Shown here: positions 1 to 20,351 of the stretch, one piece after another
How the letters are laid out: each line of letters starts with the position of its first letter
How positions within the stretch are numbered: position 1 is the stretch's first letter
DNA from: a virus
Taxonomy: Duplodnaviria > Caudoviricetes
Reading direction: 5' to 3' (one strand)
DNA: 54,501 bases
Virus record (IMG/VR): IMGVR_UViG_3300018757_000023
Coordinates: 1 to 54,501 of that record
Position numbers and translations under genes: made by a program
The notes under the pieces: model-generated
Database searches by the model: none
What the model saw: the letters and a program-made list of their open reading frames with translations, nothing else
Told to the model about the DNA's origin: nothing

Positions 1-449
1 TCGAGGAAGAAGCCACATTATCCTATGAACAGCTCATGGCGCTGCCCAAAGGGAATTCCACCAATGACATTCACTGCGTGACAGGATGGAGCAAGCTGGA
101 CAACGTCTGGGAAGGGATTCCTGTCGAAGAAATCACCAAGCTCGTCCGCATCAAGCCGGAAGCCAAATACGTCATGCTGCACGCGGAGCAGGGCTGGACA
201 GCCAACCTACCGCTTGCAGACTTTCTTGCCCCAGGCAATCTCTTTGCCTACAAGCACAACGGGGAGGATCTGACTCCTGAACACGGTTGGCCGCTTCGTT
301 TTGTGGTGCCGCATCTGTATTTCTGGAAAAGCGCCAAGTGGGTGCGGGGAATTGAGTTTATGGAGAAGGATCGGCAAGGCTTTTGGGAGAAGAATGGGTA
401 TAATATGTACGGTGACCCGTGGAAATCTCAAAGATTCGCTTGGGATTAA
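1..449 (+). CDS. yuiH: Host sulfite oxidase-like molybdopterin oxidoreductase (YuiH/MsrP family), 5'-truncated by the window; 3' end supplied by phage attP
   Basis: DIHCVTGWS, HGWPLRFVVPHLYFWKSAKW and GFWE..GY...GDPW motifs typical of this family. Confidence 0.85.
   Translation, partial: EEEATLSYEQLMALPKGNSTNDIHCVTGWSKLDNVWEGIPVEEITKLVRIKPEAKYVMLHAEQGWTANLPLADFLAPGNLFAYKHNGEDLTPEHGWPLRFVVPHLYFWKSAKWVRGIEFMEKDRQGFWEKNGYNMYGDPWKSQRFAWD
398..449 (+). other. attL (host B arm + phage P' arm), predicted crossover dinucleotide GA at 414-415
   Basis: GACCCGTGGAAA shared with the right end; ACGG-TGAC-CCGT dyad centred on GA; phage arm encodes SQRFAWD*. Confidence 0.85.
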
Positions 450-1918
450 CTAAGAAGCTTAAAGTCTGTAACCACAACTTCAGCAAATCTGCCGGGTCCG
501 CCTTTGGTGTACTCGGCAGTACAATTTATAGTGATCGATTCAAAAATTTCTCTTAAAAAGATTTTTTTAGCTTTTTCATCATCGGTGTTTTCCCAGACTT
601 CTCGCACTTTTGATAATTGATTAACGATCTCTTCCTTTGTCAAACGAGTTTCCGTATGCTCGGGTATAGATCGAATTTCTTCTAATAGTTCAGTCTCTCG
701 TTGGTTATCCTCACTTGTGCGTTCCTTTAACTCTTCTAAAGTAATAGCATCATCTGCATAGGCCAGCTGCCATTTCTTTTTTCTGCGTTTGATTTGTTCG
801 AGTTCCTTTTTTAACGATTCGAGGTAATCTTGCCTTTCCGAAACTGCACTATCTATAGAAATTTTTATTAACTTTCTCAACTGCTCTGAGTCATAGGCTA
901 GTGATGACAGGAAGGCTTCCTGCACTTTTACATCATTTACAGTAGGCATGTTACAAGTCCCGTATTGCGCACGCCCAGTGCATCTATAGTATCTATGCCT
1001 GCCGTTAGATTTTTTAGCAGAAAATCCAGTCATAGCATAACCGCACCTTGCACATCGTAGAATGCCAGAAAAAGCATAATCGGAGGAAACGGTTTTTCCA
1101 CCTTTAGAACGCAATGATATTTCATTAAATACTCGTTGAAAAAGTACTTCATCGATAATTGGCTCATGGTCGGATTCGCTTATAACTGCTTGTCCCGTTG
1201 GTTTACCACTTGCTTTACGATAGTTCCAACGAAGTTTTCCGCAGTATGCGGGATTCGTTAGAACGTAACGAACAGCGGAATAGTTCCAAATTTTGTCGTC
1301 AGGCTTGTTTGGGTCTCGGTTAAGCGAAACTGCTATTTCTCTAAAACCAGCTAACTTGTTAGTATACATATCGAAAATTTTCTTCACTATTTCGGCTTGT
1401 TCTGGATTTATTACAAGTTTGCCGTTTTCCAAATCGTACCCGTAAGGAGCTTTCGCACCGTTCCTTAGTCCTTTCTGGTGGCGCTCCATCATTACAAAAT
1501 GAACCCTTTCCGATATTTGCTCTCGTTCGAACTGACCCAAGAGAACGTTTAACCCGACATTAAAGCGGTCAAACGCAGTTGTCTCTTTTAAGTTTTCGCC
1601 TATTGCGCTTCTCAGTTCGACACTATGTTTTTTCAAAATGTCTTGAAGAACATGCCAGTCCCTCCCGTCACGAGTCCAACGGTCCAACTTCCAAAAGGCG
1701 ATAAAATCCGGGCGGATAGTTTCGATATCTTTGATAAGCCGCTGCAAATCAGGTCTTCTCATGTTTTTAGCGGAGTAACCCTCATCAACATAAACTCCGA
1801 CTAAGTTAGCTCCCCATTCAGCAAACTTGCGATCAAGTAAGCTTTTTTGAGCTGTAATAGAGTAACCCTCAATTGCTTGTTCTTCGTCGGATACCCTGAT
1901 ATATTGGATACCTCGCAC
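446..1918 (-). CDS. Large serine recombinase (phage integrase)
   Basis: YIRVS catalytic Ser, DRWTR, recombinase domain, CxxC...C zinc ribbon, coiled coil; AGGAGG upstream of GTG 1918 (ORF track starts at 1936). Confidence 0.95.
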   Translation of the reverse strand: MRGIQYIRVSDEEQAIEGYSITAQKSLLDRKFAEWGANLVGVYVDEGYSAKNMRRPDLQRLIKDIETIRPDFIAFWKLDRWTRDGRDWHVLQDILKKHSVELRSAIGENLKETTAFDRFNVGLNVLLGQFEREQISERVHFVMMERHQKGLRNGAKAPYGYDLENGKLVINPEQAEIVKKIFDMYTNKLAGFREIAVSLNRDPNKPDDKIWNYSAVRYVLTNPAYCGKLRWNYRKASGKPTGQAVISESDHEPIIDEVLFQRVFNEISLRSKGGKTVSSDYAFSGILRCARCGYAMTGFSAKKSNGRHRYYRCTGRAQYGTCNMPTVNDVKVQEAFLSSLAYDSEQLRKLIKISIDSAVSERQDYLESLKKELEQIKRRKKKWQLAYADDAITLEELKERTSEDNQRETELLEEIRSIPEHTETRLTKEEIVNQLSKVREVWENTDDEKAKKIFLREIFESITINCTAEYTKGGPGRFAEVVVTDFKLLS

Positions 1919-1932
1919 TCTCAAACGCCTCC

Positions 1933-2340
1933 TCAATAAAATATGTGCATTTCTTCTGGGATGCCATTTCGTCTTAAAAGTTCTGAAATTGATTCCCCTT
2001 CATCTAATGTGTCTCCAGCAGTCAAAAGTCTAACAGCAAACTTATTTGCTTGTCGTTCGTATTTACCGGGATTCCGAAAAGAATGCTCGTCCAACCAAAA
2101 GCGACTGAATCCTGGATGAAGCCGATCGTGCCCCAACTCGTGCGCGCAAATAAATCGTTGCCAGTTTTCATCGAGATCTTCATGGATTACAATATACCGC
2201 CTTCTTAACTTTCTCATATAAAATCCACGAGTACTATTTCCTAAATCATGAAACCAGATATTAATGTTCAATCTTTTAGCAAGTTCAAAAGGACAATGGG
2301 TTTTATGTTTGCGGATGAGTGTTCGGATAAGCTTGTCCAT
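1933..2340 (-). CDS. immA: ImmA/IrrE-family metallopeptidase (anti-repressor protease)
   Basis: HELGH (HExxH) and E.QAN.FA motifs; lies between integrase and repressor. Confidence 0.9.
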   Translation of the reverse strand: MDKLIRTLIRKHKTHCPFELAKRLNINIWFHDLGNSTRGFYMRKLRRRYIVIHEDLDENWQRFICAHELGHDRLHPGFSRFWLDEHSFRNPGKYERQANKFAVRLLTAGDTLDEGESISELLRRNGIPEEMHIFY

Positions 2341-5162: not shown

Positions 5163-5402
5163 ATGAAACAAACAGCAGTGGAACCGATCAGTCGGGAAGA
5201 CTTCGCGGAGTTTGTAAGGAACATGCGGAAGGCTGCACGGATCACACAGAAGCGATTGGGTGAGTTGCTTGGTACAGATCAACCAGCAATTAATAGATGG
5301 GAACACGGCGCTTATATGCCGCGCGAGGCAGACGTAGTAATCAAACGCATTCGCGAAGTTGTCAGAAGGGAAATTCAACTAAGGAGGATGTTGGAGACAT
5401 GA
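5163..5402 (+). CDS. Xre-family HTH protein
   Basis: ITQKRLGELLG..QPAINRWEHG. Confidence 0.8.
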   Translation: MKQTAVEPISREDFAEFVRNMRKAARITQKRLGELLGTDQPAINRWEHGAYMPREADVVIKRIREVVRREIQLRRMLET

Positions 5403-5887
5403 TCGATGTAACGGAACACTTGGGGCTTGTTTGGAAAATCATTAACAAATACAACTATACTCCGCCACTTGGAATGGATGAAGATGATCTTTTCCAGACC
5501 GGATGCATTGGATTGATGACAGCGGCTAGGAAATTTAACGCAGAGTTAGGATACACATTTTCGACATACGCAGCTACTTGGATCAGAGCCGAACTTCAAC
5601 GAATGTATGACTATCACGGCAGGCAAAAGCGTCGTAAAGTTCCCATGAGCCTGGATAAACTTCTGGATAATAGCAAGTCGAGCTTAGCAGAAATTATTCC
5701 GGATACCGTTTCGATAGAAAGTGAAGTGATAGCTAGTAATTTAAAAAAGGCTTACAGCGAAAGGGAGCCGATAATCACAAGGATGCTTCTTCGGGGATAT
5801 ACGCAAAAAGAGATCGGTAAGGAGTTAGGTATATCTCATCAGCGTGTATCAATAAGAATTCAAAATTTGAGGAAGATGGTTGTATGA
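5399..5887 (+). CDS. Phage-encoded sigma-70 family factor (SigF/SigG/SigB-like region 2 plus region 4)
   Basis: HLGLV, EDDLFQTGCIGL, FSTYA..WI and YTQKEIGKELGISHQRVS motifs. Confidence 0.85.
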   Translation: MIDVTEHLGLVWKIINKYNYTPPLGMDEDDLFQTGCIGLMTAARKFNAELGYTFSTYAATWIRAELQRMYDYHGRQKRRKVPMSLDKLLDNSKSSLAEIIPDTVSIESEVIASNLKKAYSEREPIITRMLLRGYTQKEIGKELGISHQRVSIRIQNLRKMVV

Positions 5888-6492: not shown

Positions 6493-7017
6493 GTGAATTT
6501 ATCTTTAACCGAAAAGTTAAGGTCAGTAAAGCCCAGGGGCAAAAAAGTTTTGTTTGTATGCGTTGGAACTGATCGTTCAACCGGAGACGCACTCGGTCCG
6601 ATAGTTGGCACAAAATTAAAAGCCAAGGGATATGACGTCTTGGGAACAATCGATGATCCGGTACATGCCCAAAACATTTCCGAAACGATCGAATACATCG
6701 AAAAGACATACAAAGATTACTTTGTGATCGCGATCGATGCATCCCTTGGAAAATTCAACGATGTTGGAAAGATAAAAATCAAAAAAGAGGCCTTGAAACC
6801 GGGTGCAGGAGTGGGTAAAAAACTGCCTGAGATTGGCGATGTAACAATAGCCGGGATTGTAAATGTAGGTGGATATATGGAGTATTTTGTTCTCCAAAAT
6901 ACGCGACTTTCGTTAGTGATGAGAATGGCTGACGAAATATTTCAAGTAATCCAAAAAGAAATTCGTCCTCCAAGGCGTTCAAAGAGATTGCGTGAAATGT
7001 TTGCATTAGGAAGCTGA
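6493..7017 (+). CDS. yyaC: Spore protease YyaC (DUF1256, GPR-like)
   Basis: CVGTDRSTGDALGP.VG, PVHA.N, IAIDASLG, PGAGV.K.LP.IGD and LQNTRL motifs. Confidence 0.9.
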   Translation: MNLSLTEKLRSVKPRGKKVLFVCVGTDRSTGDALGPIVGTKLKAKGYDVLGTIDDPVHAQNISETIEYIEKTYKDYFVIAIDASLGKFNDVGKIKIKKEALKPGAGVGKKLPEIGDVTIAGIVNVGGYMEYFVLQNTRLSLVMRMADEIFQVIQKEIRPPRRSKRLREMFALGS

Positions 7018-13028: not shown

Positions 13029-13571
13029 ATGAATTTCGTGGAGCCCATCAGGGATAAGGAAAAAATCGAGGAACTGAAAGCACTGTTGAAAAAACAGTCT
13101 GCCCGAAACGGTTTTTTACTGAACTTTGGTATCAACACGGGACTTCGGATCTCTGACATCTTGCCGCTGAAGGTCGCGGACGTGCGCGGTAAATCACATA
13201 TCCTGATCACAGAGAAAAAGACCGGCAAACGGAAACGCTTCAAAATTAACCAGGCTCTACGCGATGCAATCAAGAGCTACACCCAGGGAATGGACAACGA
13301 TGACTACCTGTTCGCTTCATCAAAGCGTCCGCAGCCAATCACCCGGGTCCGGGCTTACCAGATTCTGAATGGAGCTGCGCGAAAGATCGGGCTCAGTGAG
13401 ATCGGGACGCATTCGTTGCGGAAAAGCTTCGGCTATCACTTCTACCAGCGCACGCGGGATATCGCAACATTGCAGATGATTTTTAACCACTCGCACCCGT
13501 CGATCACGCTGCGATACATCGGGATTACACAGGATCTGATTGACGAGGCGGTAGATCAGTTCAGTTTATAG
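13029..13571 (+). CDS. Short (180 aa) tyrosine recombinase, essentially catalytic domain only
   Basis: Complete catalytic set R (GLRISD), K (EKKTGK), HxxR (HSLRK), H (FNHS), Y (LRYIG); GGGAGG RBS. Confidence 0.92.
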   Translation: MNFVEPIRDKEKIEELKALLKKQSARNGFLLNFGINTGLRISDILPLKVADVRGKSHILITEKKTGKRKRFKINQALRDAIKSYTQGMDNDDYLFASSKRPQPITRVRAYQILNGAARKIGLSEIGTHSLRKSFGYHFYQRTRDIATLQMIFNHSHPSITLRYIGITQDLIDEAVDQFSL

Positions 13572-13584
13572 AGGTGAGCACAGA

Positions 13585-13812
13585 ATGGCTGAACTAAGCG
13601 AGGAAGCAAAGCGGATTTGTAAAGAAAATTATACCAAGAACTGTCACAGATGCCCGATCAGACCACAATGCACATCACCTGTTGGTCCAGGTTACGAAGC
13701 GCAATACAGGTGGTTGAACGTGGTGAATGAGGCAGCAGATAAAGTGGGCACGGGGACACAAGGTGTAAGTTTGAAAGGAGGAATTGAAGATGTTCGAACA
13801 GTCCGCATATAA
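13585..13812 (+). CDS. Hypothetical Cys-containing protein
   Basis: GAGGTG RBS; C..CP....C. Confidence 0.55.
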   Translation: MAELSEEAKRICKENYTKNCHRCPIRPQCTSPVGPGYEAQYRWLNVVNEAADKVGTGTQGVSLKGGIEDVRTVRI

Positions 13813-13987
13813 ACAGGTGCAACACATGCGTATAGAACTTGAAGACTTACATCAACGACTTGCTGATAGTCAGAGTATACCGCTTACGTTATCACTGTTG
13901 TCCGATCTTTATAAATATGGGTTACCTGCGATCATCAAGGTGCTGACCAAGGCGGAAGAAGAGTTGGCTAAACAGCAGCAAGGCTAA
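13790..13987 (+). CDS. Hypothetical protein
   Basis: AAGGAGG RBS; its TAA forms the start of the first cassette site. Confidence 0.6.
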   Translation: MFEQSAYKQVQHMRIELEDLHQRLADSQSIPLTLSLLSDLYKYGLPAIIKVLTKAEEELAKQQQG

Positions 13988-14024
13988 CACAAGCTCAATT
14001 ATGTAAAGCAGGGAGGTAAAGCGT

Positions 14025-14534
14025 ATGCGAATGTTGTCTCTCTGTTCAGGAATCGACGGGATAGGATTGGCAGCAAAGTGGGCCGGGATCGAGACGGTAG
14101 CTTTCTGCGAGATCGAGCCTTATCCAGTGAAGGTCCTGAACAAACGATTCCCAGGAATACCGGTCTTCGATGATCTTCGGAAATTGAACAAGCAAATGCT
14201 TATAGATGTAGGGGTGATAACGAGTGATGGCAGCCGAACAATTGACCTTATTTGCGCCGGATACCCTTGCCAGCCTTTCTCCAACGCCGGGAAGCGACTT
14301 GGCGAGGACGATGACCGCCACCTCTGGCCGGAAGTGTTTAGACTTGTGTGTGAGCTCAGGCCCACTTGGTTCCTTGGAGAAAATGTTGCTGGACACGTCA
14401 CACTGGGCCTCGACAACGTACTTGCTGACTTGGAAGGTGCTGGCTACGCAACAAGGCCGTTTTTATTACCGGCTGCAGCCGTTGGTGCCCCACATCGAAG
14501 AGACCGGATCTTCACTTTGGCCCACACCTTCTAG
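14025..14534 (+). CDS. C5-cytosine DNA methyltransferase, N-terminal catalytic part (motifs I-VIII)
   Basis: SLCSGIDG (I), GYPCQPFS (IV), ENV (VI), PHRRDR (VIII). Confidence 0.88.
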   Translation: MRMLSLCSGIDGIGLAAKWAGIETVAFCEIEPYPVKVLNKRFPGIPVFDDLRKLNKQMLIDVGVITSDGSRTIDLICAGYPCQPFSNAGKRLGEDDDRHLWPEVFRLVCELRPTWFLGENVAGHVTLGLDNVLADLEGAGYATRPFLLPAAAVGAPHRRDRIFTLAHTF

Positions 14535-15363
14535 CCAGGAACCAGGGGTTAAAGTGGAACGCTTAGTTGATAAAGACGGAAACATACCAACCCATTCAAA
14601 TCAGAGATTATATGACAAGGACACGGGGAGATTAGCGCAAACTGGATTACAACAAGCGGTTGCAATATCAGGTATGTGGCCTACTCCACAAGCTAGAGAC
14701 TACAGAAGCGCAGACAATCCAGATTCACCACGAGTAGCACGAAAAGCTGAGCAAGGATGGAGCCCGAACCTGAATGATGCCGTTAAACTCTGGCCTACTC
14801 CACGAGCTAACGATGCGGAAAAGCGTGGCGAAATAAACGCAAATGATCCAAGGAATGGATTACCTGCCGCCGTAAAGCTTTGGCCGACGCCTAAAGCCAC
14901 TCTAAGAGGAGATTGTCCTTCTGAAAGAGAGCGTCGTACTCCAGACCTGCATGCAGCGGTAAAGATGTGGCCAACACCAAATGCCTCTGACCATAGGGAT
15001 AGAGGAAACCTATCAAATCCGTGTATTCAACGCCGTATAGAAATCGGTAAGCAAGTGGAATTGTCTATGTGCGTGTCGGATAAGAGCGGACAACTCAATC
15101 CCGATTGGGCAGAGAGCCTGATGGGGTTCCCGATCGGATGGACAGACCTCGATTGCGAAGAACCAGGAGTCCATTGGATCGATTATCCACGTTGGCCAGC
15201 CGGTCAAGGTCAGGAACAATACGAATGGGAGCCGCCCCGAGTGGCTGTTGGAGTAAAGAATAGGGTTGCCCGGCTGAAAGCATGTGGTAACGCAGTTGTA
15301 CCGGCGCAAGTGTTCCCGATCTTGTCAGCCATTAAAGCGGTACATGATTCAGAAGCAATTTAA
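14224..15363 (+). CDS. C5 methyltransferase second polypeptide: repeated WPTP target-recognition units plus motifs IX-X
   Basis: Five (L/M)WPTP repeats, LNPDWAESLMGFP (IX), RLKACGNAVV (X); overlaps the first ORF in the +1 frame. Confidence 0.8.
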   Translation: MMAAEQLTLFAPDTLASLSPTPGSDLARTMTATSGRKCLDLCVSSGPLGSLEKMLLDTSHWASTTYLLTWKVLATQQGRFYYRLQPLVPHIEETGSSLWPTPSSQEPGVKVERLVDKDGNIPTHSNQRLYDKDTGRLAQTGLQQAVAISGMWPTPQARDYRSADNPDSPRVARKAEQGWSPNLNDAVKLWPTPRANDAEKRGEINANDPRNGLPAAVKLWPTPKATLRGDCPSERERRTPDLHAAVKMWPTPNASDHRDRGNLSNPCIQRRIEIGKQVELSMCVSDKSGQLNPDWAESLMGFPIGWTDLDCEEPGVHWIDYPRWPAGQGQEQYEWEPPRVAVGVKNRVARLKACGNAVVPAQVFPILSAIKAVHDSEAI

Positions 15364-15387
15364 CAAACTGCTCAGTTTGAAAAGGAA

Positions 15388-15645
15388 GTGATCATGTTGG
15401 CCAGAGGCGACTACGGAAAGAACCGAAAAGAATGGATCGCATCGACAATTGTTGGCGGGCATACTTACGCTGTTCGAGTCAGTTGTGTATCGGCCCGATC
15501 AGCAATGGTTCAAGGATCGGGAGAATTAGAAAAGATTTTAAAGGAACATAAGATTAAAGCTCCAGATGATTGGAGCGTTCGCATTGTAGGTGAAGGCACA
15601 GAAGCCTATAAGGAATTTGATATTTGGATGTCAGGCGGATATTAA
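15388..15645 (+). CDS. Hypothetical protein (single-gene cassette)
   Basis: Fills the interval between two cassette sites. Confidence 0.6.
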   Translation: MIMLARGDYGKNRKEWIASTIVGGHTYAVRVSCVSARSAMVQGSGELEKILKEHKIKAPDDWSVRIVGEGTEAYKEFDIWMSGGY

Positions 15646-15678
15646 CAAAATGTGTAATAAGTAAAGCTGAACGAATTA

Positions 15679-16035
15679 TCATTTTTTGTCTGGCCACTCA
15701 TCACCTTCTGTGCGACATATCCAGTCGTAATGTAACTCTGTATCAAATGGTTCTACAGGCAACTCAGAGCCTTGAACAACAATTCGCAGATCATCTAGGG
15801 TAATCCGCTCATTGAGATATACGAGAGTGTCGTGAATCCCTCCGTCACGAGCTTGTTGTAGCATCTGGGACAGCACCATTTTTTGTTCGGATGTTAAAAC
15901 ATCAAGAAACTGATTTATTTGCTCATCCTGAGGAAGCTTTGGCCATCCATCTTTTTGTACCCAAGTTGACTGTACACATGGTCGTAGCTTCACTAAATCA
16001 TCGATAAACATTTTGTATTGATCTAAGTTAGTCAA
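15679..16035 (-). CDS. Hypothetical protein resembling DUF6547 / immunity-type proteins (inverted cassette)
   Basis: GGGGAG RBS; YK.FID.LV, ARDGGIHD.L.YL and HYDW..R..GD.WP pattern recalled from DUF6547. Confidence 0.6.
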   Translation of the reverse strand: MTNLDQYKMFIDDLVKLRPCVQSTWVQKDGWPKLPQDEQINQFLDVLTSEQKMVLSQMLQQARDGGIHDTLVYLNERITLDDLRIVVQGSELPVEPFDTELHYDWICRTEGDEWPDKK

Positions 16036-16129
16036 ATCGATCTCCCCATTTAACCGTAGTAATATGGGTCATTTTAGCAGAACAGTGGGCGCAGAACAAT
16101 TTAACTTAATAGTTAGGGAGGAAAGAACT

Positions 16130-16399
16130 GTGAGAATACTAACCGACAAACAATACAGTGTCCTGATGGCACTGACAGATGAATGGCAAACACCGACGCA
16201 GATTGCTGGCAAGCTCGAGCAATCCAAACAAAACCCAACGTGGGCTGCATTGTACGGATCATCGTACGTCAATCAACCGCTGAAGGCTCTCGTCAAAAGA
16301 TGGTGGGTCGAGGTCAACCCGGATAAGCGCGGCCAATACAGGTTATCTGATCTGGGCAAATCAGTAATGGACGAGGTGAGAAGGGTACATGCGAACTGA
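16130..16399 (+). CDS. Winged-helix-like hypothetical protein
   Basis: GGGAGG RBS before GTG; LT..Q..VL..L...W.TP..I...L..LV....V.....G.Y.L wHTH-like pattern. Confidence 0.55.
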   Translation: MRILTDKQYSVLMALTDEWQTPTQIAGKLEQSKQNPTWAALYGSSYVNQPLKALVKRWWVEVNPDKRGQYRLSDLGKSVMDEVRRVHAN

Positions 16400-16625
16400 A
16401 GCGCTGAACGGCTTGAAAAAAGGCGACCGCGTACGACATAAAAAGAGCAGCGGAAACAACCACTGGTACCAGTCGTTAAACAACGGGACTGTTGAAGATG
16501 TGTCCTTATCCGGAAAAACGGTGTACGTGAAATGGGTAGATGGACGAGGTCAGTATCATCATTGGGCCATGTATAGGTGCGATGTACTGGAAAAGATCGA
16601 TGAGGGAGGGCAAGCCGATGCTTGA
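16389..16625 (+). CDS. Small SH3-like hypothetical protein
   Basis: LKKGDRVRH...GTV..V......V.W pattern. Confidence 0.55.
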   Translation: MRTEALNGLKKGDRVRHKKSSGNNHWYQSLNNGTVEDVSLSGKTVYVKWVDGRGQYHHWAMYRCDVLEKIDEGGQADA

Positions 16626-16911
16626 TTGCACAAAGGTAAAAACATTCACACCGCATATTCCAGCGGGTACGGGACCGACGTTCATCAAAGCAGAAGATGC
16701 AGTAGTAGAGATCTTGGCTAATTTAAACGAATCTGCGACCCGGGTGTTGAGCAATGATCAACTTGAAATGATGGAGCAATTTATAACCGATACACTACGG
16801 ATCGCTGATTGGATCGACGGGACATACACAATCTTCGAGGACTATCAGATCGAAGTCAGGACCATGCAGCAGTGGCAGCTTGACCAAATGCCAGAGTTCA
16901 ACGGCTATTAA
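16618..16911 (+). CDS. Hypothetical protein
   Basis: GGGAGG RBS; ends in a cassette site. Confidence 0.6.
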   Translation: MLDCTKVKTFTPHIPAGTGPTFIKAEDAVVEILANLNESATRVLSNDQLEMMEQFITDTLRIADWIDGTYTIFEDYQIEVRTMQQWQLDQMPEFNGY

Positions 16912-16935
16912 CACAACGGTAATTGAATAAAGCTT

Positions 16936-17304
16936 TTACTCCAGTCTGAGAATTACATTGTCATGTTGGGCGATTATTTCCAAAACCCAATCCAAGATTG
17001 TAGGACCAATACCTGATTCAGCTTTTTGTAAATCTTCTCTAACAAGTGGTCTGTTTAAAGGATGACAATATTCAAGACGTTCTTTCAGAATCTTAACTGT
17101 TTCAGAATAACTTAGGTTTTTCTTGGATTAGGCAAAGTTTTTCCAGATGATAGTGCCGTTCACATCGCGAAGTAAGTCGTTAAAACCGTCTAGGTTTCCT
17201 GGCTTCCATTGATTGTAGAATCCTGCAAACACAGTATTATTAAACTCCTTGCAGAGCTTAGCATAATTGGAAATGTTATTACCGTCGATAACAAAAGTCT
17301 CCAC
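16936..17304 (-). pseudogene. Barstar-family (ribonuclease inhibitor) gene with an internal nonsense codon (inverted cassette)
   Basis: FVIDG...W..GNLDGFNDLL...IIWKN, then TAA at 17128-17130, then the same frame continues SKKNLSYSETV...CHP...GPTILDWVLEII..H..V.L.LE* to 16936. Confidence 0.75.
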
Positions 17305-17400
17305 ATTACTCACCCTTTCTGGTGGTAGGATTATCCAAATATTAATTGATGATATTATTAAACACAACACACGATTTGATAAAAAGGGAGGGGCAAGGGC

Positions 17401-17877
17401 ATGGATAGGGAACAGCTTATCTCGGAAGCAATCGCGGGGAACAAAGCGATTTTGGCGGAACTGAACGACTTCGCAGAAAACGAGGGACATCCAAATGCAC
17501 AGGTGATGCTCGCTGTGATGAGTCAGATCAGGAAGTTGGAAAGGGAAATCGCTGAACTGGAACAGGAGCTTGAACTTGGTCCGAAAAGAAAAAGGGATAT
17601 CCATGAGTGGTTCAATTTAACCTATGCGCAGTACCTGACTGTCCCGAGGAGTGTCCTGCAATCCATGCCGGAGACATGGCAGCATAAGTTCGTCGCACTT
17701 CTGGAGGAACTCGATGAGACGGGGTGGATGTCCCTGCTGCCGAAGGATACGTGCTACAAAGTCGAGCTCCGCAAGATGGAGGAAAAACTCAGCGGAGATG
17801 GCTGGAAATGGGGCGGGAAAGTAACTGACCAGCTGGCTGACTATCAAAGGGGCAGAAGAAACGTATTTGCTGAGTAA
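17401..17877 (+). CDS. Hypothetical phage protein (single-gene cassette)
   Basis: GGGAGG RBS; WF.L.YA.YL..PRS.LQSMP..WQ pattern seen in phage accessory proteins. Confidence 0.7.
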   Translation: MDREQLISEAIAGNKAILAELNDFAENEGHPNAQVMLAVMSQIRKLEREIAELEQELELGPKRKRDIHEWFNLTYAQYLTVPRSVLQSMPETWQHKFVALLEELDETGWMSLLPKDTCYKVELRKMEEKLSGDGWKWGGKVTDQLADYQRGRRNVFAE

Positions 17878-17912
17878 CACAACAATCGTTGTGATAAAAG
17901 GGAGGCGGGAGG

Positions 17913-18080
17913 ATGGCAAAGGCAGTGGTATTCAGCGTGGTTCTTGAATCGCCCCTAAAACTCGAAATAGGCGATCAAGTAACCTTTGAAGGAAAGAAAT
18001 TAATTGTTACTAAGATTAGAAAGGTCGAATACATTACGAGCCGATTGGTTTCTGTGCTAGGGAACGGAAAGGCAATTTAA
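17913..18080 (+). CDS. Small beta-rich hypothetical protein (55 aa; not in ORF track)
   Basis: Read from sequence: MAKAVVFSVVLESPLKLEIGDQV...KAI*; exactly fills one cassette. Confidence 0.6.
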   Translation: MAKAVVFSVVLESPLKLEIGDQVTFEGKKLIVTKIRKVEYITSRLVSVLGNGKAI

Positions 18081-18114
18081 CATTTCATTACGTTTGTATC
18101 CAGGAGGGACGTTT

Positions 18115-18354
18115 ATGACAGAGATCGTTTTAAATCTCAATGAGAGCCAGCGCTTCCTGATAGAAGACCCGGACAGTGTAGCAGTGATTATGGTTGATCA
18201 AGTAACCATTCATCCGGTTGCAAATCAAATCGTTTATAGTGGCTACTCATTCGATGTCGATTTCGAAAAAATGGATTTTACAAGCAAACGAAAAGTTCAG
18301 ATGGTACTGAACACCAAAACGGAAGCAGTATTTGGCGAGGAGGACGGTGCATGA
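18115..18354 (+). CDS. Hypothetical protein
   Basis: AGGAGG RBS. Confidence 0.6.
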   Translation: MTEIVLNLNESQRFLIEDPDSVAVIMVDQVTIHPVANQIVYSGYSFDVDFEKMDFTSKRKVQMVLNTKTEAVFGEEDGA

Positions 18355-18833
18355 AAGCCATCACCATTCACCAGCCTTGGGCTACGCTGATTGCTCTTGG
18401 AGAGAAACGGTTTGAAACGAGAGGCTGGCCGACCAAGTACCGCGGCCGCATCGCGATTCACGCCGCCAAGAAAGTGGACAAGGAGATTTGCCAGCAAGAA
18501 CCTTTCCGCAGCGTTCTTGCAAAATACGGATATACAGCAGACAGCTTGCCGACAGGGGCCATCGTCGCCACATGCGAACTTGCGGAATGCTGGAAATGGG
18601 ATGACAGAGACGGCGTTCTGCTTCGCATCAAGCCAATCATCGAATATGATGCGATCGGCCAAGTCACAAATCACTTGGAAATCAGCAACAAGGAAAAGGC
18701 TTTTGGATGGTACGGGGCCGAACGCTTTGCATGGGAACTGGCCGACGTCCAGCAGTTCGCGGAGCCTGTGCCAGCAAAAGGCCAGCAAGGACTATGGAAT
18801 TGGGGAGGGGAACGGGATGCAAGCAGGACGTGA
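18351..18833 (+). CDS. ASCH domain protein
   Basis: MKAITIHQPWA.LI..G.K..ETR.W...YRG.IAIHA; P.PAKG.QGLW. Confidence 0.9.
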   Translation: MKAITIHQPWATLIALGEKRFETRGWPTKYRGRIAIHAAKKVDKEICQQEPFRSVLAKYGYTADSLPTGAIVATCELAECWKWDDRDGVLLRIKPIIEYDAIGQVTNHLEISNKEKAFGWYGAERFAWELADVQQFAEPVPAKGQQGLWNWGGERDASRT

Positions 18834-19245
18834 TGCAGAAAAAGACCTTGCGATGTGTGAGGCAGCTACAGACGGACCATGGCATACACAACCGGACGGT
18901 AGATACTCGCTGGCTATTGTTAGCGTTCCTGAGCAAGAAGTGATTTGCTTCACAGATAGCTTTGGTGATGGCGTGCATGATGGACAATTCATAGCGGAAT
19001 CACGAACTGCACTTCCGCATTGGATCCAGCGAGCGTTGGCTGCAGAGGAAAAGCTGAAATGGGTAAGCAAGGACGCTACAGAAATGCACGACGACTGGAT
19101 TGATTCGTCAGCAAGGGCTACGGCTGCTGCAACTGAGATTGAACGCCTCCAATACGTAGCTGAGTCGCTATATCAAATCATCCAGCGTGGGGACTTGACT
19201 TCATCGGATATGGCGGAGGCAGAACGGATATACGTTGGCACTTAA
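18817..19245 (+). CDS. Hypothetical phage protein (Ead/Ea22-like)
   Basis: AAT.GPW...D..FIA..R..LP pattern. Confidence 0.6.
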   Translation: MQAGRDAEKDLAMCEAATDGPWHTQPDGRYSLAIVSVPEQEVICFTDSFGDGVHDGQFIAESRTALPHWIQRALAAEEKLKWVSKDATEMHDDWIDSSARATAAATEIERLQYVAESLYQIIQRGDLTSSDMAEAERIYVGT

Positions 19246-19277
19246 CATAAGAGAAATTGTGATGAGGAGGAGTATCG

Positions 19278-19793
19278 ATGAGCAAGGTATTTAAAATCAA
19301 GCCAGATACAAAAGAATGGGAGTTGTTTCATAAACTCTGGACGTTTGAGGATGTTTGGAGAGAAAAGATGGGCGATATCGAAAAATTACTTGGGTGCAGC
19401 GTAGATAGAAACCTTGCTGTAAATACACATACACTCCTGATGAAAAATCCACCAGAGCATTTACGTGACCAATTCTCAAAAAGAGCAGACAAAGAGGGTT
19501 TCTATAGGGCAAAAAGCAAGTCAGCTATCCAGAAACAATGGACTGACTTCTGCAAGGTCTATAACCTGGAGGCATTTACACCATACGATTTAATTTGGAG
19601 GTTGGGCTTACCCTCTATTGAGGACATGAATGCGTTCAAATCCTTTTATCCGCTGATGGAAGGGGATTACTATTTCGAATTGAGAGAAGGGAAGAATTGG
19701 AGTGGCTACAGTTGGGCAATTGAAGTCGATGAACCCAGTTTCCTAAGGATCAAGGCAAATTGGCTGGAGGAAAAGAACAAGCAATCTGCTTAA
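19278..19793 (+). CDS. Hypothetical protein (single-gene cassette)
   Basis: GAGGAGG RBS; bounded by two cassette sites. Confidence 0.7.
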   Translation: MSKVFKIKPDTKEWELFHKLWTFEDVWREKMGDIEKLLGCSVDRNLAVNTHTLLMKNPPEHLRDQFSKRADKEGFYRAKSKSAIQKQWTDFCKVYNLEAFTPYDLIWRLGLPSIEDMNAFKSFYPLMEGDYYFELREGKNWSGYSWAIEVDEPSFLRIKANWLEEKNKQSA

Positions 19794-19826
19794 CAAAATA
19801 TTTCGGGAGTATAGGAGGGAGCAAGT

Positions 19827-20351
19827 GTGACAAAAGACCAAAAGAAAGTGAATGTTAAGATCAAGAAGCTTCACCCAGATGCGGTGACCCCACAATATGC
19901 ACGGGAACTGGATGCTGGCTTCGACCTGGTTGCCGTGGAGGATACGCTGATCTACCCAGGAGAGAGTGTAAAGGTGCGAACTGGATTGGCGATAGCGCTG
20001 CCGCCTGGTTATGAGCTGCAGGTCAGGCCGCGGTCGGGAGTGAGTAATAAGACAAAACTGCGAATCAGCAACTCGCCAGGGACTGTAGATGCCGGATATC
20101 GTGGAGAGGTATGCGTATTGATGGACAATATCTCTCAATATCCAGTACCTAATGTCAATGAGCCAATACTCATAAACGGGAAGAACGTTAGAGGTGAGAA
20201 TGTTAAATCAGGAGTCTATATCATCCGCAAAGGCGACCGCATCGCCCAAGGTGTACTGGCTGCAGTGCCGATAGCACAGTTCGAAGTAGTTGACGAGCTA
20301 GACGATACAGAGCGCGGCAGTGGAGGATTCGGCAGCTCAGGAATTAACTGA
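19827..20351 (+). CDS. dut: Trimeric dUTPase
   Basis: AGFDL, RPRSG, GTVDAGYRGE, GDRIAQ and RGSGGFGSSG motifs. Confidence 0.95.
   Translation: MTKDQKKVNVKIKKLHPDAVTPQYARELDAGFDLVAVEDTLIYPGESVKVRTGLAIALPPGYELQVRPRSGVSNKTKLRISNSPGTVDAGYRGEVCVLMDNISQYPVPNVNEPILINGKNVRGENVKSGVYIIRKGDRIAQGVLAAVPIAQFEVVDELDDTERGSGGFGSSGIN

What the first reader, a model, noticed from the sequence alone, without database searches (positions are those of the whole stretch)
13029..19812. Candidate phage integron-like system: short tyrosine recombinase followed by nine gene cassettes delimited by dif-like sites
Seen in sequence: ten 22-bp sites with 8-6-8 geometry. They are 13985 TAACACAA-GCTCAA-TTATGTAA; 15361 TAACAAAC-TGCTCA-GTTTGAAA; 15643 TAACAAAA-TGTGTA-ATAAGTAA; 16094 GAACAATT-TAACTT-AATAGTTA; 16909 TAACACAA-CGGTAA-TTGAATAA; 17360 AAACACAA-CACACG-ATTTGATA; 17875 TAACACAA-CAATCG-TTGTGATA; 18078 TAACATTT-CATTAC-GTTTGTAT; 19243 TAACATAA-GAGAAA-TTGTGATG; 19791 TAACAAAA-TATTTC-GGGAGTAT. 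In 8 of 10 the first TAA is the stop codon of the upstream gene, and the two exceptions follow the 5' ends of inverted genes. Wherever a + strand gene follows, its RBS lies a few nt after the right arm. Genes internal to multi-gene cassettes instead end in TGA/TAG overlaps. I did not see this pattern at gene ends elsewhere in the phage. Established knowledge: inverted arms around a 6-bp spacer are the architecture of tyrosine-recombinase core sites, and TTATGTAA/TTATGTTA is the XerD(RipX)-type arm of dif. Inference: the intact 180-aa recombinase (or host Xer) captures, excises or shuffles promoter-less cassettes inside the early operon, like integron cassettes or pdif modules. The phage already has a serine integrase for chromosome insertion, so this second recombinase needs another job. 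I know of no description of this system.
Basis: partly seen in the sequence, partly recalled or inferred. Interest (0 to 1): 0.92.

Follow-up and report, generated by a model that had tools for sequence, protein, structure and literature searches.

The report
Barcoded recombination sites between phage genes
Brevibacillus prophages separate their small early genes with ten look-alike 24-base sites, each with its own fixed six-base middle and always in the same order, and related phages have swapped, gained or lost genes exactly at those middles, which points to a built-in, slot-by-slot gene-exchange system not described in print.

Summary
The ten sites exist; site 4 registers better at 16102. 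The unit is 9-6-9, TTAACAMAA-N6-WTKTGWWAA.

Arrays recur in about 75 loci, in prophages of many Brevibacillus species. The six-base centres are slot-specific and keep one order, GCTCAA to TATTTC: 325 of 352 neighbouring pairs ascend. Of 130 sites picked by arms and position alone, 125 carry the expected centre.

Between the sites the genes are mostly unrelated. Each arm travels with its adjoining cassette, so crossovers fall in the centre. One near-identical phage pair differs by a 445-bp cassette lying between two slot-4 copies that share only the centre as an uninterrupted run.

Best reading (0.65): heterospecific tyrosine-recombinase core sites that allow slot-wise cassette exchange and insertion.

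The enzyme is open. The 180-aa Xer-like recombinase has intact catalytic residues, abuts site 1, and its homologues in other genera sit beside similar sites. But most arrays, and 17 of 26 site-bearing genomes, lack it. Host XerCD remains possible.

Eight literature searches found no description. Earlier unchecked notes of this scan report analogous barcoded palindromes in other phages.

The parts
13029..13571 (+). 180-aa tyrosine recombinase consisting of the catalytic domain only (Xer-like, YoeC/phrog_216 family). It heads the transcription unit.
   Evidence: PF00589 E 1.2e-26 over residues 10-164. phrog_216 E 1.3e-64. Best NCBIfam hits are XerA, XerD and XerC, all below their cut-offs. R40, K64, H128, R131, H154 and Y163 are invariant in 16 family members and align with the XerH/XerA motifs.
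13585..13987 (+). Two small overlapping genes (13585-13812 and 13790-13987) inserted between the recombinase and site 1. No site lies upstream of them.
   Evidence: ORFs. No Pfam or PHROG hit. In relatives, site 1 directly follows the recombinase stop codon.
13984..14007 (+). Site 1, centre GCTCAA. Right arm is TTATGTAAA.
   Evidence: The right arm equals the inner 9 bases of the XerD-side arm of the Brevibacillus fortis dif candidate.
14025..15363 (+). Cassette 1-2: C5-cytosine DNA methyltransferase, read in two frames with a shift near 14500-14534.
   Evidence: PF00145 E 8.5e-36 on 14025-14534. The C-terminal part lies in another frame.
15360..15383 (+). Site 2, centre TGCTCA.
15394..15645 (+). 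Cassette 2-3: 83-aa gene with no known family.
   Evidence: No homologue among the five other full arrays.
15642..15665 (+). Site 3, centre TGTGTA.
15679..16035 (-). Cassette 3-4: inverted DUF6547 gene.
   Evidence: PF20184 E 1.8e-46.
16101..16124 (+). Site 4, centre TAGTTA. The right arm is the ribosome-binding site GGGAGGAAA.
16130..16911 (+). Cassette 4-5: three overlapping small genes (16130-16399, 16389-16625, 16618-16911).
   Evidence: phrog_20140 for the third gene.
16908..16931 (+). Site 5, centre CGGTAA.
16939..17313 (-). Cassette 5-6: inverted gene with an in-frame TAA at 17128-17130.
   Evidence: No Pfam hit for either half.
17359..17382 (+). Site 6, centre CACACG.
17401..17877 (+). 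Cassette 6-7: 158-aa gene.
   Evidence: phrog_3527.
17874..17897 (+). Site 7, centre CAATCG. This is the best palindrome, with 7 of 8 arm positions complementary.
17913..18080 (+). Cassette 7-8: 55-aa gene.
18077..18100 (+). Site 8, centre CATTAC.
18115..19245 (+). Cassette 8-9: three overlapping genes (18115-18354; the ASCH-domain gene 18351-18833; 18817-19245).
   Evidence: PF04266 E 1.8e-06. The first gene is 65% identical to a slot 7-8 gene of L006.
19242..19265 (+). Site 9, centre GAGAAA.
19278..19793 (+). Cassette 9-10: 171-aa gene.
19790..19813 (+). Site 10, centre TATTTC. It is the last site; the dUTPase gene (19827-20351) follows.
   Evidence: PF00692.

Best explanation
The ten sites are core sites of a conservative, tyrosine-recombinase-type site-specific recombination system.

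Each site has two arms, shared by all ten, that bind the recombinase. Between the arms lies a 6-bp asymmetric overlap region, which must match between the two partner sites.

Every junction of the early accessory-gene operon has its own overlap sequence, and the same ten sequences in the same order are used by prophages across the genus. The expected consequences are:
- Sites within one genome do not recombine with each other.
- A site can recombine with the same-numbered site of a co-resident or superinfecting phage.
- One crossover joins the left part of one genome to the right part of the other.
- Two crossovers at different slots replace the cassette(s) between them. This would be a natural equivalent of recombinase-mediated cassette exchange.
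- A circle carrying one site can insert at the matching slot.

Shown here: the site anatomy, the conserved order, the slot-specific centres, the unrelated cassette contents, and crossovers that map to the centre.

Inferred: the chemistry and the enzyme. My estimates for the enzyme, given that recombination happens, are about 0.45 for the 180-aa Xer-like recombinase supplied in cis or in trans, about 0.3 for host XerCD, and the remainder unknown.
For: 1. Specificity of the centres.
- Of 375 sites chosen by arm score alone in 75 loci, 336 carry one of the ten centres exactly. Chance would give 0.24%.
- Of 130 arm-only sites lying between a slot i-1 site and a slot i+1 site, 125 have exactly the centre of slot i and 3 differ by one base.
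- All 12 strict arm matches in a complete B. fortis genome carry canonical centres (11) or a one-base variant (1), against 0-1 hits for the control pattern.

2. Order. Of 352 neighbouring labelled pairs, 325 ascend, 10 are equal and 17 descend.

3. The sites are islands in unrelated DNA.
- In 9502 of 9668 same-slot pairs, both flanks are below 45% identity.
- Cassettes are diverse; for example, slot 5-6 holds 52 cassettes in 37 families.

4. Crossovers fall between the arms.
- In 23 pairs alike upstream only, left-arm identity is 0.96 and right-arm identity 0.62.
- In 33 pairs alike downstream only, the values are 0.73 and 0.95.
- The baseline is 0.74 and 0.66.
- Estimated change points fall at site positions 15-33 and -2 to 9 respectively.

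5. Recent clean events.
- L049 compared with L026 has an extra 445-bp cassette between two slot-4 copies.
- The single L026 site equals the left arm of copy 1 plus the right arm of copy 2.
- The two copies share only the centre TAGTTA as an uninterrupted run.
- In L026/L049 and in L049/L110, similarity switches on or off exactly at centre edges, in backgrounds 99-100% identical over the 100 bp compared on either side.

6. Similarity breakpoints. Of 994 internal ends of BLAST similarity between arrays, 280 lie within 15 bp of a site centre. Random placement gives 58 +/- 8.

7. Properties expected of heterospecific core sites.
- No centre is a palindrome.
- The minimum pairwise distance between centres is 2.
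- All sites lie in one orientation.
- The arms vary independently, with no covariation.

8. Link to the recombinase family.
- Site 1 starts 3-11 bp after its stop codon in 12 intact loci and after one gene remnant, out of 23 site-1 copies.
- Homologues in other genera have sites of the same architecture nearby: SM1 has TTAACAGAA-TATAAG-ATATGTTAA; others have GTAACACAA-N6-TTGTGTTAC.
- One locus (L207) has two copies with reverse-complementary centres flanking the gene.
- Of 34 non-Brevibacillus representatives, 11 have such a site within 450 bp, at 0.65 per kb against 0.16 per kb further away.
- The catalytic residues are intact.
Against: - No experiment exists, and no read-level evidence of ongoing recombination was found.
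- Most arrays lack the recombinase:
  - 4 of 24 site-7-bearing virus records have a close homologue.
  - Three complete phages have no PF00589 gene.
  - B. fortis has at least 8 array regions and no copy.
  - 17 of 26 site-bearing Brevibacillus genomes lack it.
- The protein has no N-terminal core-binding domain.
- Right arms at slots 2, 4 and 10 are often just the ribosome-binding site GGGAGGAAA, a poor match to the left arm.
- Slot fidelity is not absolute. One ORF family occurs 16 times in slot 5-6 and 11 times in slot 6-7. There are 17 descending and 10 same-slot transitions.
- 72% of similarity ends are not within 15 bp of a site.
- One junction in L049 switches in the middle of the slot-5 centre.
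- The phage encodes Erf, Gam, SSB and RusA, so relaxed homologous recombination is available.
- Loci were retrieved through the recombinase or through patterns for sites 6 and 7. This inflates the counts for those items, and inflates right-arm conservation at slots 6 and 7.
Confidence: 0.65

Rival explanations
1. The sites are conserved linker or boundary sequences, and the exchange is homologous. The phage Erf/Gam system or host RecA uses the short shared sequence as microhomology. No site-specific enzyme is involved.
For: The window phage encodes Erf, Mu-Gam-like, SSB and RusA proteins. Breakpoints in the longest identical stretch (centre plus adjoining arm bases) would also be expected under this model. 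One junction lies inside a centre. Boundary sequences and relaxed recombination by Rad52-like proteins have been proposed for phage mosaicism; I recall this literature and did not read it here. PeSL elements shuffle T4-type genes by recombination between repeats (PMC2839356, abstract read).
Against: - In the L049 insertion, the contiguous identity between the recombining copies is 6 bp. That is far below what annealing or RecA pairing is known to need (established knowledge).
- This model gives no reason for inverted arms shared by all ten junctions. Shared arms would only invite ectopic deletions.
- It gives no reason for centres being about 99% conserved while arms are 66-74% identical.
- It gives no reason for sites of the same architecture lying next to tyrosine-recombinase genes in other genera.
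Confidence: 0.12
2. The chemistry is as in the best explanation, but the enzyme is the host XerC/XerD (CodV/RipX) pair. The small phage recombinase has another job, for example resolving phage-genome dimers at site 1 or regulating late genes.
For: - The centre is 6 bp long, as in dif.
- The site-1 right arm TTATGTAAA equals the XerD-side arm of the B. fortis dif candidates (CCATTCCAGAA-TATATA-TTATGTAAACT).
- Arrays persist in phages and genomes that lack any small recombinase.
- In Bacillus and Streptococcus phages, the homologue sits by the late activator and cos, not by an array.
Against: - Left arms do not resemble the XerC-side arm of the dif candidates.
- Both arms look like the same half-site, which suggests a single protein species.
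- The strict arm pattern finds no chromosomal dif-like site outside prophage arrays.
- Sites of the same architecture accompany the small recombinase gene in other genera.
- The dif pattern I searched with was recalled from memory.
Confidence: 0.2
3. The sites are operators. A recombinase-fold protein, or another dimeric regulator, binds between the genes and controls the early operon. The models are MrpR on SPBRE elements of SPbeta, or the stoperators of cluster A mycobacteriophages. Breakpoints at the sites would then be a by-product of their conservation.
For: MrpR has a tyrosine-recombinase fold, has lost recombinase function, and binds a repeated 15-bp element in intergenic regions of SPbeta (PMC10516654; abstract and passages read). 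Here the arms are shared by all sites, lie just upstream of ribosome-binding sites, and overlap stop codons.
Against: - One regulator cannot explain ten slot-specific centres that are better conserved than the arms, or their fixed order.
- Most arrays have no recombinase-fold gene.
- Unlike MrpR, this protein keeps all catalytic residues.
- The 445-bp insertion has the exact arm-swap structure of a site-specific event.
Confidence: 0.08
4. The sites act as RNA or single-stranded DNA hairpins. Possible roles are mRNA processing or stability elements, or attC-like folded sites.
For: The arms are partly complementary, 2-7 of 8 positions in the window, and lie between cistrons.
Against: - Complementarity between the two arms of a site is no higher than between shuffled arms: 5.12 versus 5.27 of 9 positions, and 2000 of 2000 shuffles reach the observed value.
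- The C6/G17 pair shows no association (Fisher p 0.18).
- The stems would be AT-rich and weak.
- Ten different conserved loops have no obvious reader.
Confidence: 0.03

Closest known systems
Integrons (IntI integrase, attI, attC-bounded gene cassettes)
   Same: Both have a row of mostly promoter-less small cassettes. In some loci a tyrosine recombinase gene sits at the head of the row. Cassette insertion leaves the inserted unit flanked by recombinant sites.
   Different: - The sites are 24-bp duplex-type core sites. They are not 57-141-bp folded attC hairpins, and the arms show no covariation.
- Centres are slot-specific and ordered, so position is preserved. In integrons cassettes enter at attI.
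- The recombinase is not an IntI: the integron-integrase models score 33 and 19 bits against cut-offs of 265 and 435.
- The recombinase is co-oriented with the array.
- Most arrays have no integrase.
- The system lies in a phage early operon.
dif modules bounded by pdif (XerC/XerD) sites on Acinetobacter plasmids
   Same: Short Xer-type sites with a 6-bp centre flank gene modules that turn up in different contexts. The enzyme is presumed to be supplied in trans by the host. The description of pdif rests on a search listing and abstract start (PMC7399989) and on recall.
   Different: - pdif sites alternate in orientation (C/D then D/C) and share centres. Here all sites are direct repeats in orientation, with ten distinct centres in a fixed order.
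- Both arms here look like one half-site type.
- The setting is prophages of a Gram-positive genus.
Engineered recombinase-mediated cassette exchange with heterospecific lox or FRT sites
   Same: The logic is the same. Sites share arms but differ in the overlap region, so only like sites recombine, and a segment between two unlike sites is exchanged without rearranging anything else. This is established knowledge; two searches returned only engineering papers.
   Different: That is a laboratory design using two or three spacer variants. Here ten variants appear to be a natural, genus-wide convention, and the exchange is inferred from comparative data, not demonstrated.
PeSL (promoter-early stem-loop) cassettes of T4-type phages
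   Same: Short repeated intergenic elements in a hyperplastic region of small accessory genes mark the points of insertion, deletion and replacement (PMC2839356, abstract read).
   Different: PeSLs are promoter-plus-terminator units, and exchange is by recombination between near-identical repeats. Here there is no promoter or stem-loop, identity is confined to 6 bp plus degenerate arms, and each junction is individually addressed.
Single-recombinase Xer modules with the site next to the gene (XerS/difSL, XerH/difH) and small invertases (FimB/FimE)
   Same: The 180-aa protein is closest to XerA, XerD, XerC and XerH. Site 1 abuts its gene. In one relative, the gene lies between inverted copies of the site.
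   Different: It lacks the N-terminal core-binding domain and scores below every family cut-off. One genome carries ten cognate-looking sites with different centres. The adjacency of difSL and difH to their genes is recalled, not checked here.
MrpR (YopR) and SPBRE elements of SPbeta
   Same: A tyrosine-recombinase-fold protein is associated with a short element repeated in intergenic regions of a Bacillales prophage (PMC10516654).
   Different: MrpR has lost the catalytic Arg and His residues and acts as a repressor on near-identical elements. Here the catalytic residues are kept, the centres differ by slot, and the sites coincide with exchange points.

Membership tests
Integron | IntI-type integrase | tested here: not met
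   The NCBIfam integron-integrase models score 33.1 bits (cut-off 265) and 18.9 bits (cut-off 435).
Integron | attC sites: long imperfect palindromes recognised as folded single strands | tested here: not met
   The sites are 24 bp. Arm-arm complementarity does not exceed shuffled arms.
Integron | Array adjacent to, and dependent on, the integrase gene | tested here: not met
   4 of 24 array-bearing virus records have a close homologue. Three complete phages have no PF00589 gene.
pdif / dif module (Xer-dependent) | Core site with a 6-bp central region and an XerD-type arm | tested here: inconclusive
   The centre is 6 bp. The site-1 right arm TTATGTAAA equals the dif-candidate arm, but the other right arms match only 6-7 of 9 positions, and the left arms do not match the XerC-side arm.
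pdif / dif module (Xer-dependent) | Modules flanked by sites in alternating (inverted) orientation | tested here: not met
   All labelled sites of an array lie on one strand with asymmetric centres in one orientation.
pdif / dif module (Xer-dependent) | Recombination by host XerC/XerD | not testable with these tools
   Needs binding and recombination assays.
Shufflon / invertible-segment systems | Inverted site pairs that allow inversion of segments | tested here: not met
   There are no inverted site pairs in the Brevibacillus arrays. An inverted pair flanks the recombinase gene only in one distant locus, L207.
PeSL-type regulatory cassettes | Strong promoter plus terminator stem-loop at each junction | tested here: not met
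   There are 5 promoter-like sites against 10.6 expected from shuffles, and none lies at a site. No + strand terminator lies at any junction. There is no hairpin signal.
Operator arrays (stoperators, SPBRE) | Near-identical copies of one binding motif with no position-specific part | tested here: not met
   There are ten slot-specific centres, 125 of 130 exact by position, while arms are only 66-74% identical.
Tyrosine recombinase, Xer-like (the 180-aa protein) | Catalytic R-K-H-R-H/W-Y set | tested here: met
   R40, K64, H128, R131, H154 and Y163 are invariant in 16 members. They align with the GLR, HxLR, GH and Y motifs of the XerC-like protein, XerA and XerH.
Tyrosine recombinase, Xer-like (the 180-aa protein) | N-terminal core-binding domain | tested here: not met
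   PF00589 covers residues 10-164 of 180. PDB and NCBIfam matches start at about residue 100-190 of the full-length enzymes.
phrog_216 / YoeC-like small phage integrases | Full-length match to the family profile | tested here: met
   phrog_216 E 1.3e-64. At least 7836 clusters at E <= 1e-10; 101 of the 120 listed are exactly 180 aa, and some are named YoeC.

The most novel reading that the evidence does not exclude
Brevibacillus prophages share a genus-wide socket standard: ten heterospecific recombination sites in fixed order. With it, any two phages meeting in one cell can trade accessory genes slot by slot without disturbing gene order or the operon. This would be a natural counterpart of recombinase-mediated cassette exchange. 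It would be catalysed by the widespread but uncharacterised 180-aa YoeC-type recombinase supplied by either partner, and that would also give the 'second integrase' of thousands of Firmicutes phages its function.
Probability: 0.4. Interest if true: 0.92.

Novelty: categorically new. Interest (0 to 1): 0.86.

Why it matters
Phage genomes are mosaics, and how genes are exchanged so cleanly at gene boundaries has been argued over since the modular theory was proposed. The two standing ideas are conserved linker sequences and random illegitimate joints filtered by selection.

This locus shows a third possibility in unusually clear form: addressed site-specific crossover points between individual genes, conserved across a genus while the genes themselves turn over.

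If confirmed, it would:
- explain the hypervariable early regions of these phages, which carry methyltransferases and ASCH, YopX and other accessory genes;
- assign a role to a very large family of small 'second integrases' whose function is stated as unclear in print (PMC3335513);
- supply a set of ten naturally orthogonal recombination sites of practical use for genome engineering.

Tried and rejected
RNA or ssDNA hairpin: rejected. There is no arm covariation.

Promoter or terminator elements at the junctions: rejected.

Similarity search of the region against deposited phages: only a 294-bp methyltransferase stretch matched, at 75%, mainly in Paenibacillus larvae phages. No deposited phage carries the array.

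Scanning 64 distant recombinase loci with the Brevibacillus arm matrix: only 2 of 64 had a site of 12 bits or more within 400 bp downstream, against 29 of 247 control windows. The association in other genera appeared only with a looser pattern and at characteristic positions. It covers 11 of 34 representatives, so it is suggestive, not general.

Genome-level co-occurrence of recombinase and sites in 37 Brevibacillus genomes (my cross-tabulation):
- 9 have both, 2 have the recombinase only, 17 have sites only, 9 have neither.
- This shows no clear association.
- The strict pattern is insensitive. It misses, for example, the window's site 7, whose preceding base is G.

Read laying:
- The only full holder is the probable source sample, kept as contigs, with no variants.
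- Two rhizosphere metagenomes hold pieces of single cassettes. One example is a contig piece matching 19250-19809, which runs from the centre of site 9 to just past the centre of site 10.
- The joints have short sides of 21-29 bases at 85% likeness, and may simply be the repeated sites of other phages.
- I do not count this as evidence.

Search for a gene always found upstream of site 1 in arrays without the recombinase: none. Upstream genes differ, for example polymerase-like, helicase-like and small ORFs, named from the first residues of the ORFs printed and not tested against any family model.

Search for more clean insertion events: only one was found among 75 loci, and two clean segment replacements.

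Supplementary files of papers were not opened. The SPBRE site list of PMC10516654 may be there and could refine the comparison with operators.

Papers recalled but not seen: De Paepe 2014 and Martinsohn 2008 on relaxed recombination; Clark 2001 on boundary sequences; Blackwell and Hall on pdif; Nilsson 2004 on P2 inserts.

Full report
**What is in the window**

The window is a complete 54.5-kb virus record, a temperate phage. Its gene content, in order:
- a serine integrase (446-1936, minus strand) and a Rha-type regulator;
- a sigma-70-like factor, Mu-Gam-like, Erf, SSB, HNH, replication proteins and RusA;
- a 180-aa tyrosine recombinase (13029-13571);
- the region in question;
- a dUTPase and the terminase genes.

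A matrix built from them recovers 9 of 10 in leave-one-out scoring at 10.7 bits or more. It finds one comparable hit in the remaining 48 kb. TAACA fused to a stop codon occurs only at gene ends between 13987 and 19793. Site 4 is better placed at 16102. An alignment of 57 sites from six phages shows the unit to be 9-6-9: TTAACAMAA-N6-WTKTGWWAA.

**The decisive observation comes from relatives**

I retrieved relatives by three routes:
- Nine viral contigs through the recombinase.
- 29 stretches through a site-7 pattern.
- 62 stretches through a site-6 pattern in species-representative genomes. Of these, 48 are Brevibacillus of many species. The other 14 are single matches in unrelated taxa, close to the roughly 17 I calculate for chance, and they have no neighbouring sites.

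In the Brevibacillus material, the six central bases are specific to each junction and come in one order: GCTCAA, TGCTCA, TGTGTA, TAGTTA, CGGTAA, CACACG, CAATCG, CATTAC, GAGAAA, TATTTC.

Over 75 loci:
- 336 of 375 sites picked by arm score alone have one of these ten centres exactly. Most of the rest are one-base variants.
- Of 352 neighbouring labelled pairs, 325 ascend, 10 repeat a slot and 17 descend.
- In a test that does not use the centre for assignment, 125 of 130 sites lying between slot i-1 and slot i+1 carry the exact centre of slot i.
- No centre is palindromic, and any two differ at 2 or more positions.

The arms are much less conserved. Identity is 0.74 (left) and 0.66 (right) between same-slot sites in unrelated contexts.

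**What lies between the sites**

The content between sites is mostly unrelated from phage to phage:
- Seven of the nine cassettes of the window have no homologue in five other full arrays.
- Across the set there are 345 distinct cassettes, with 20-37 families in the well-sampled slots 2-3, 3-4, 5-6, 6-7 and 7-8, and 9-16 in slots 4-5, 8-9 and 9-10.
- In 9502 of 9668 same-slot comparisons, both flanks are unrelated.
- Recurrent cassette genes are typical early accessory genes: C5 and N6 DNA methyltransferases, ASCH/DUF3850, YopX, ABA-sandwich proteins.

Slot preference is real but not absolute. Some ORF families occur in adjacent slots.

**Where the exchanges happened**

When two same-slot sites share only the upstream flank, the left arms are 96% identical and the right arms are at background (62%). 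When they share only the downstream flank, the reverse holds (73% and 95%). Each arm therefore belongs to its neighbouring cassette, and the crossover lies between the arms.

Ends of BLAST similarity between arrays are 4.8 times enriched within 15 bp of a site centre: 280 of 994 against 58 expected. However, 72% lie elsewhere, inside genes or at internal gene boundaries.

Three recent events in near-identical backgrounds are especially clear.

*Event 1: insertion or deletion at slot 4.* L026 has one slot-4 site, TTTACTAAA-TAGTTA-CTTTGTTGA. L049 has TTTACTAAA-TAGTTA-GGGAGTGAA, then a 445-bp cassette, then TTATCACAT-TAGTTA-CTTTGTTGA. This is exactly the product expected if a circle with one site integrated at the resident site, or the substrate of the reverse excision. 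The two copies share only the 6-bp centre as an uninterrupted run.

*Event 2: replacement upstream of slot 6.* In the same pair, the sequence upstream of slot 6 is replaced. Identity resumes at the first base of the centre.

*Event 3: L049 versus L110.* These share a cassette up to and including a slot-4 centre, and diverge from the first base of the right arm.

One further junction in this pair switches in the middle of the slot-5 centre and leaves a non-canonical centre. So not every event is clean.

**What the sites are not**

- The arms of a site do not co-vary. Complementarity is 5.12 of 9 against 5.27 for shuffled arms, so a hairpin in RNA or single-stranded DNA is unlikely.
- There is no promoter or terminator signal at the junctions. 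Promoter-like matches in the region are fewer than in shuffles.
- A single DNA-binding regulator could explain the shared arms but not ten conserved, ordered centres.

**The enzyme**

*In favour of the 180-aa recombinase:*
- It is a Xer-like catalytic domain with all catalytic residues.
- When present in Brevibacillus prophages, it sits immediately upstream of site 1. This holds for 13 of 23 site-1 copies. Among the 15 not retrieved through the recombinase, it holds for 6 plus one 42-aa remnant.
- Its family is huge and uniform. At least 7836 clusters reach E <= 1e-10, most of the 120 listed are exactly 180 aa, and identity to Bacillus cereus-group members is 63%. There are 180 deposited phages with a homologue, mostly Streptococcus and Bacillus.
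- In other genera, sites of the same build lie next to the gene:
  - TTAACAGAA-TATAAG-ATATGTTAA about 100 bp downstream in Streptococcus phage SM1;
  - the same TATAAG centre downstream in several uncultured relatives and in L009;
  - GTAACACAA-N6-TTGTGTTAC about 150 bp upstream in another group;
  - two copies with reverse-complementary centres flanking the gene in L207.

*Against it:*
- It lacks a core-binding domain.
- Only 4 of 24 site-7-bearing virus records have a close homologue.
- The complete phages G002, G013 and G019 have no PF00589 gene.
- The complete B. fortis genome has at least eight array regions and no copy.
- 17 of 26 site-bearing species genomes lack it.

Supply in trans by the other partner of a cross would reconcile these facts, but that is inference.

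*Host XerCD is the alternative.* The B. fortis dif candidates are CCATTCCAGAA-TATATA-TTATGTAAACT and a second copy 29 kb away. The site-1 right arm matches the XerD-side arm, but the left arms do not match the XerC side.

*Homologous recombination is the main non-site-specific rival.* The phage has Erf, Gam, SSB and RusA. Six contiguous bases of identity, and the shared inverted arms, argue against it.

**Proposed mechanism**

The early operon is punctuated by core sites that share arms but differ in overlap sequence. Tyrosine recombinases need matching overlaps to complete strand exchange (established knowledge for Cre, FLP and Xer). Sites within one genome are therefore inert towards each other, which protects the operon. 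The same-numbered sites of two phages in one cell can recombine.

One crossover swaps everything to one side of the slot. Two crossovers exchange the cassettes in between. A circle with one site can enter its matching slot.

The pattern of arms travelling with cassettes, invariant centres, conserved order and the L026/L049 event are all direct predictions of this scheme. Cleavage, strand exchange and the identity of the protein are not shown.

**Comparison with known systems**

The system works like an integron or a pdif-module system in using recombinase sites to delimit cassettes. It fails the defining features of both: there is no IntI, there are no folded attC sites, site orientation does not alternate, and most arrays have no integrase (see the membership table). 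Its logic is that of engineered cassette exchange with heterospecific lox or FRT sites.

PeSL elements (PMC2839356, abstract read) and MrpR/SPBRE (PMC10516654, abstract and passages read) are the nearest phage precedents. They serve for junction repeats and for recombinase-fold proteins with repeated sites respectively, and both differ in the points listed.

**Literature and earlier scan notes**

Eight full-text searches found no description of such arrays or of a function for the small recombinase. The phIS3501 paper states that the role of this 'second integrase' is not clear (PMC3335513, passage read). The paper on integrons in phages (PMC9892861) was seen only as a listing and abstract start, and concerns classical IntI/attC.

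Earlier notes of this scan report analogous palindromes with slot-specific six-base centres in SPbeta-like and other phages. They are unchecked AI notes on other DNA. I used them as leads to the PeSL and pdif literature, not as evidence.

**Caveats**

- Loci were retrieved through the recombinase or through patterns that fix the centre and part of the arms of sites 6 and 7. Counts for those slots, their right-arm conservation, and recombinase frequencies in the first nine loci are therefore biased.
- The arm matrix was trained on the first 57 sites.
- Near-duplicate loci were removed only by exact context.
- Cassette families rest on stop-to-stop ORFs and single-linkage clustering.

Noticed in passing
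window 14025-15363: The C5-cytosine methyltransferase is read in two frames. Motifs up to RRDRIF lie in one frame, ending at a TAG at 14532-14534. The WPTP-repeat target-recognition part and the C-terminal NAVVP motif lie in another frame. Paenibacillus larvae phages annotate their homologue as two CDS. The split may therefore be a common natural form, or a frameshift site, not simply damage.
   Followed up: partly
window 16939-17313 (minus strand): The inverted gene of cassette 5-6 has an in-frame TAA at 17128-17130. Neither half matches a Pfam family. Slot 5-6 often lacks a ribosome-binding site after site 5 in relatives, which suggests this slot commonly holds inverted genes.
   Followed up: partly
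L207:2403-3148: In a distant relative (53% identity), the small recombinase gene is flanked by two copies of GTAACACAA-N6-TTGTGTTAC whose centres (TTGTAG and CTACAA) are reverse complements. This is the layout of an invertible segment that contains its own recombinase.
   Followed up: partly
L137:3157-3180 (Streptococcus phage SM1), L009:10722, L194/L196/L198/L199/L211/L215: A site with centre TATAAG (ACACAAAA-TATAAG-ATATGG type) lies 100-170 bp downstream of the small recombinase gene in phages of other hosts. It may be the family's ancestral cognate site.
   Followed up: partly
G025:C1:3236813-3265859 (L132, L133): The complete Brevibacillus fortis chromosome has two dif-like sites 29 kb apart near mid-chromosome. 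They share an identical centre and XerD-side arm but have different XerC-side arms. This is the usual footprint of an element integrated at dif.
   Followed up: no
L004:19097-19621 and L006:17707-18246: A second, paralogous small recombinase (45-49% identical) lies 2-3 kb downstream of the array in two relatives. Similar paralogues occur elsewhere in three Brevibacillus genomes and in virus record G023.
   Followed up: no
L106, L119, L089, L085/L099: Some genomic arrays repeat blocks of slots, for example 2-3-4-3-4-5-6-2-3-4-5-6, or 6-8-9-6-8-9-10, or slot 6 followed 68 bp later by slot 1. These may be tandem prophages or products of unequal exchange. They make up most of the 17 descending transitions.
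   Followed up: no
window 5297-5887 and 6493-7017: The phage carries a sigma-70-like factor gene and a DUF1256 gene (weak match to germination protease) in its early region.
   Followed up: no
G053:C643:2949-3488: A 3.9-Mb genome of the genus holds a recombinase 99% identical to the window's. It is a likely host or near relative of the host of this phage.
   Followed up: no
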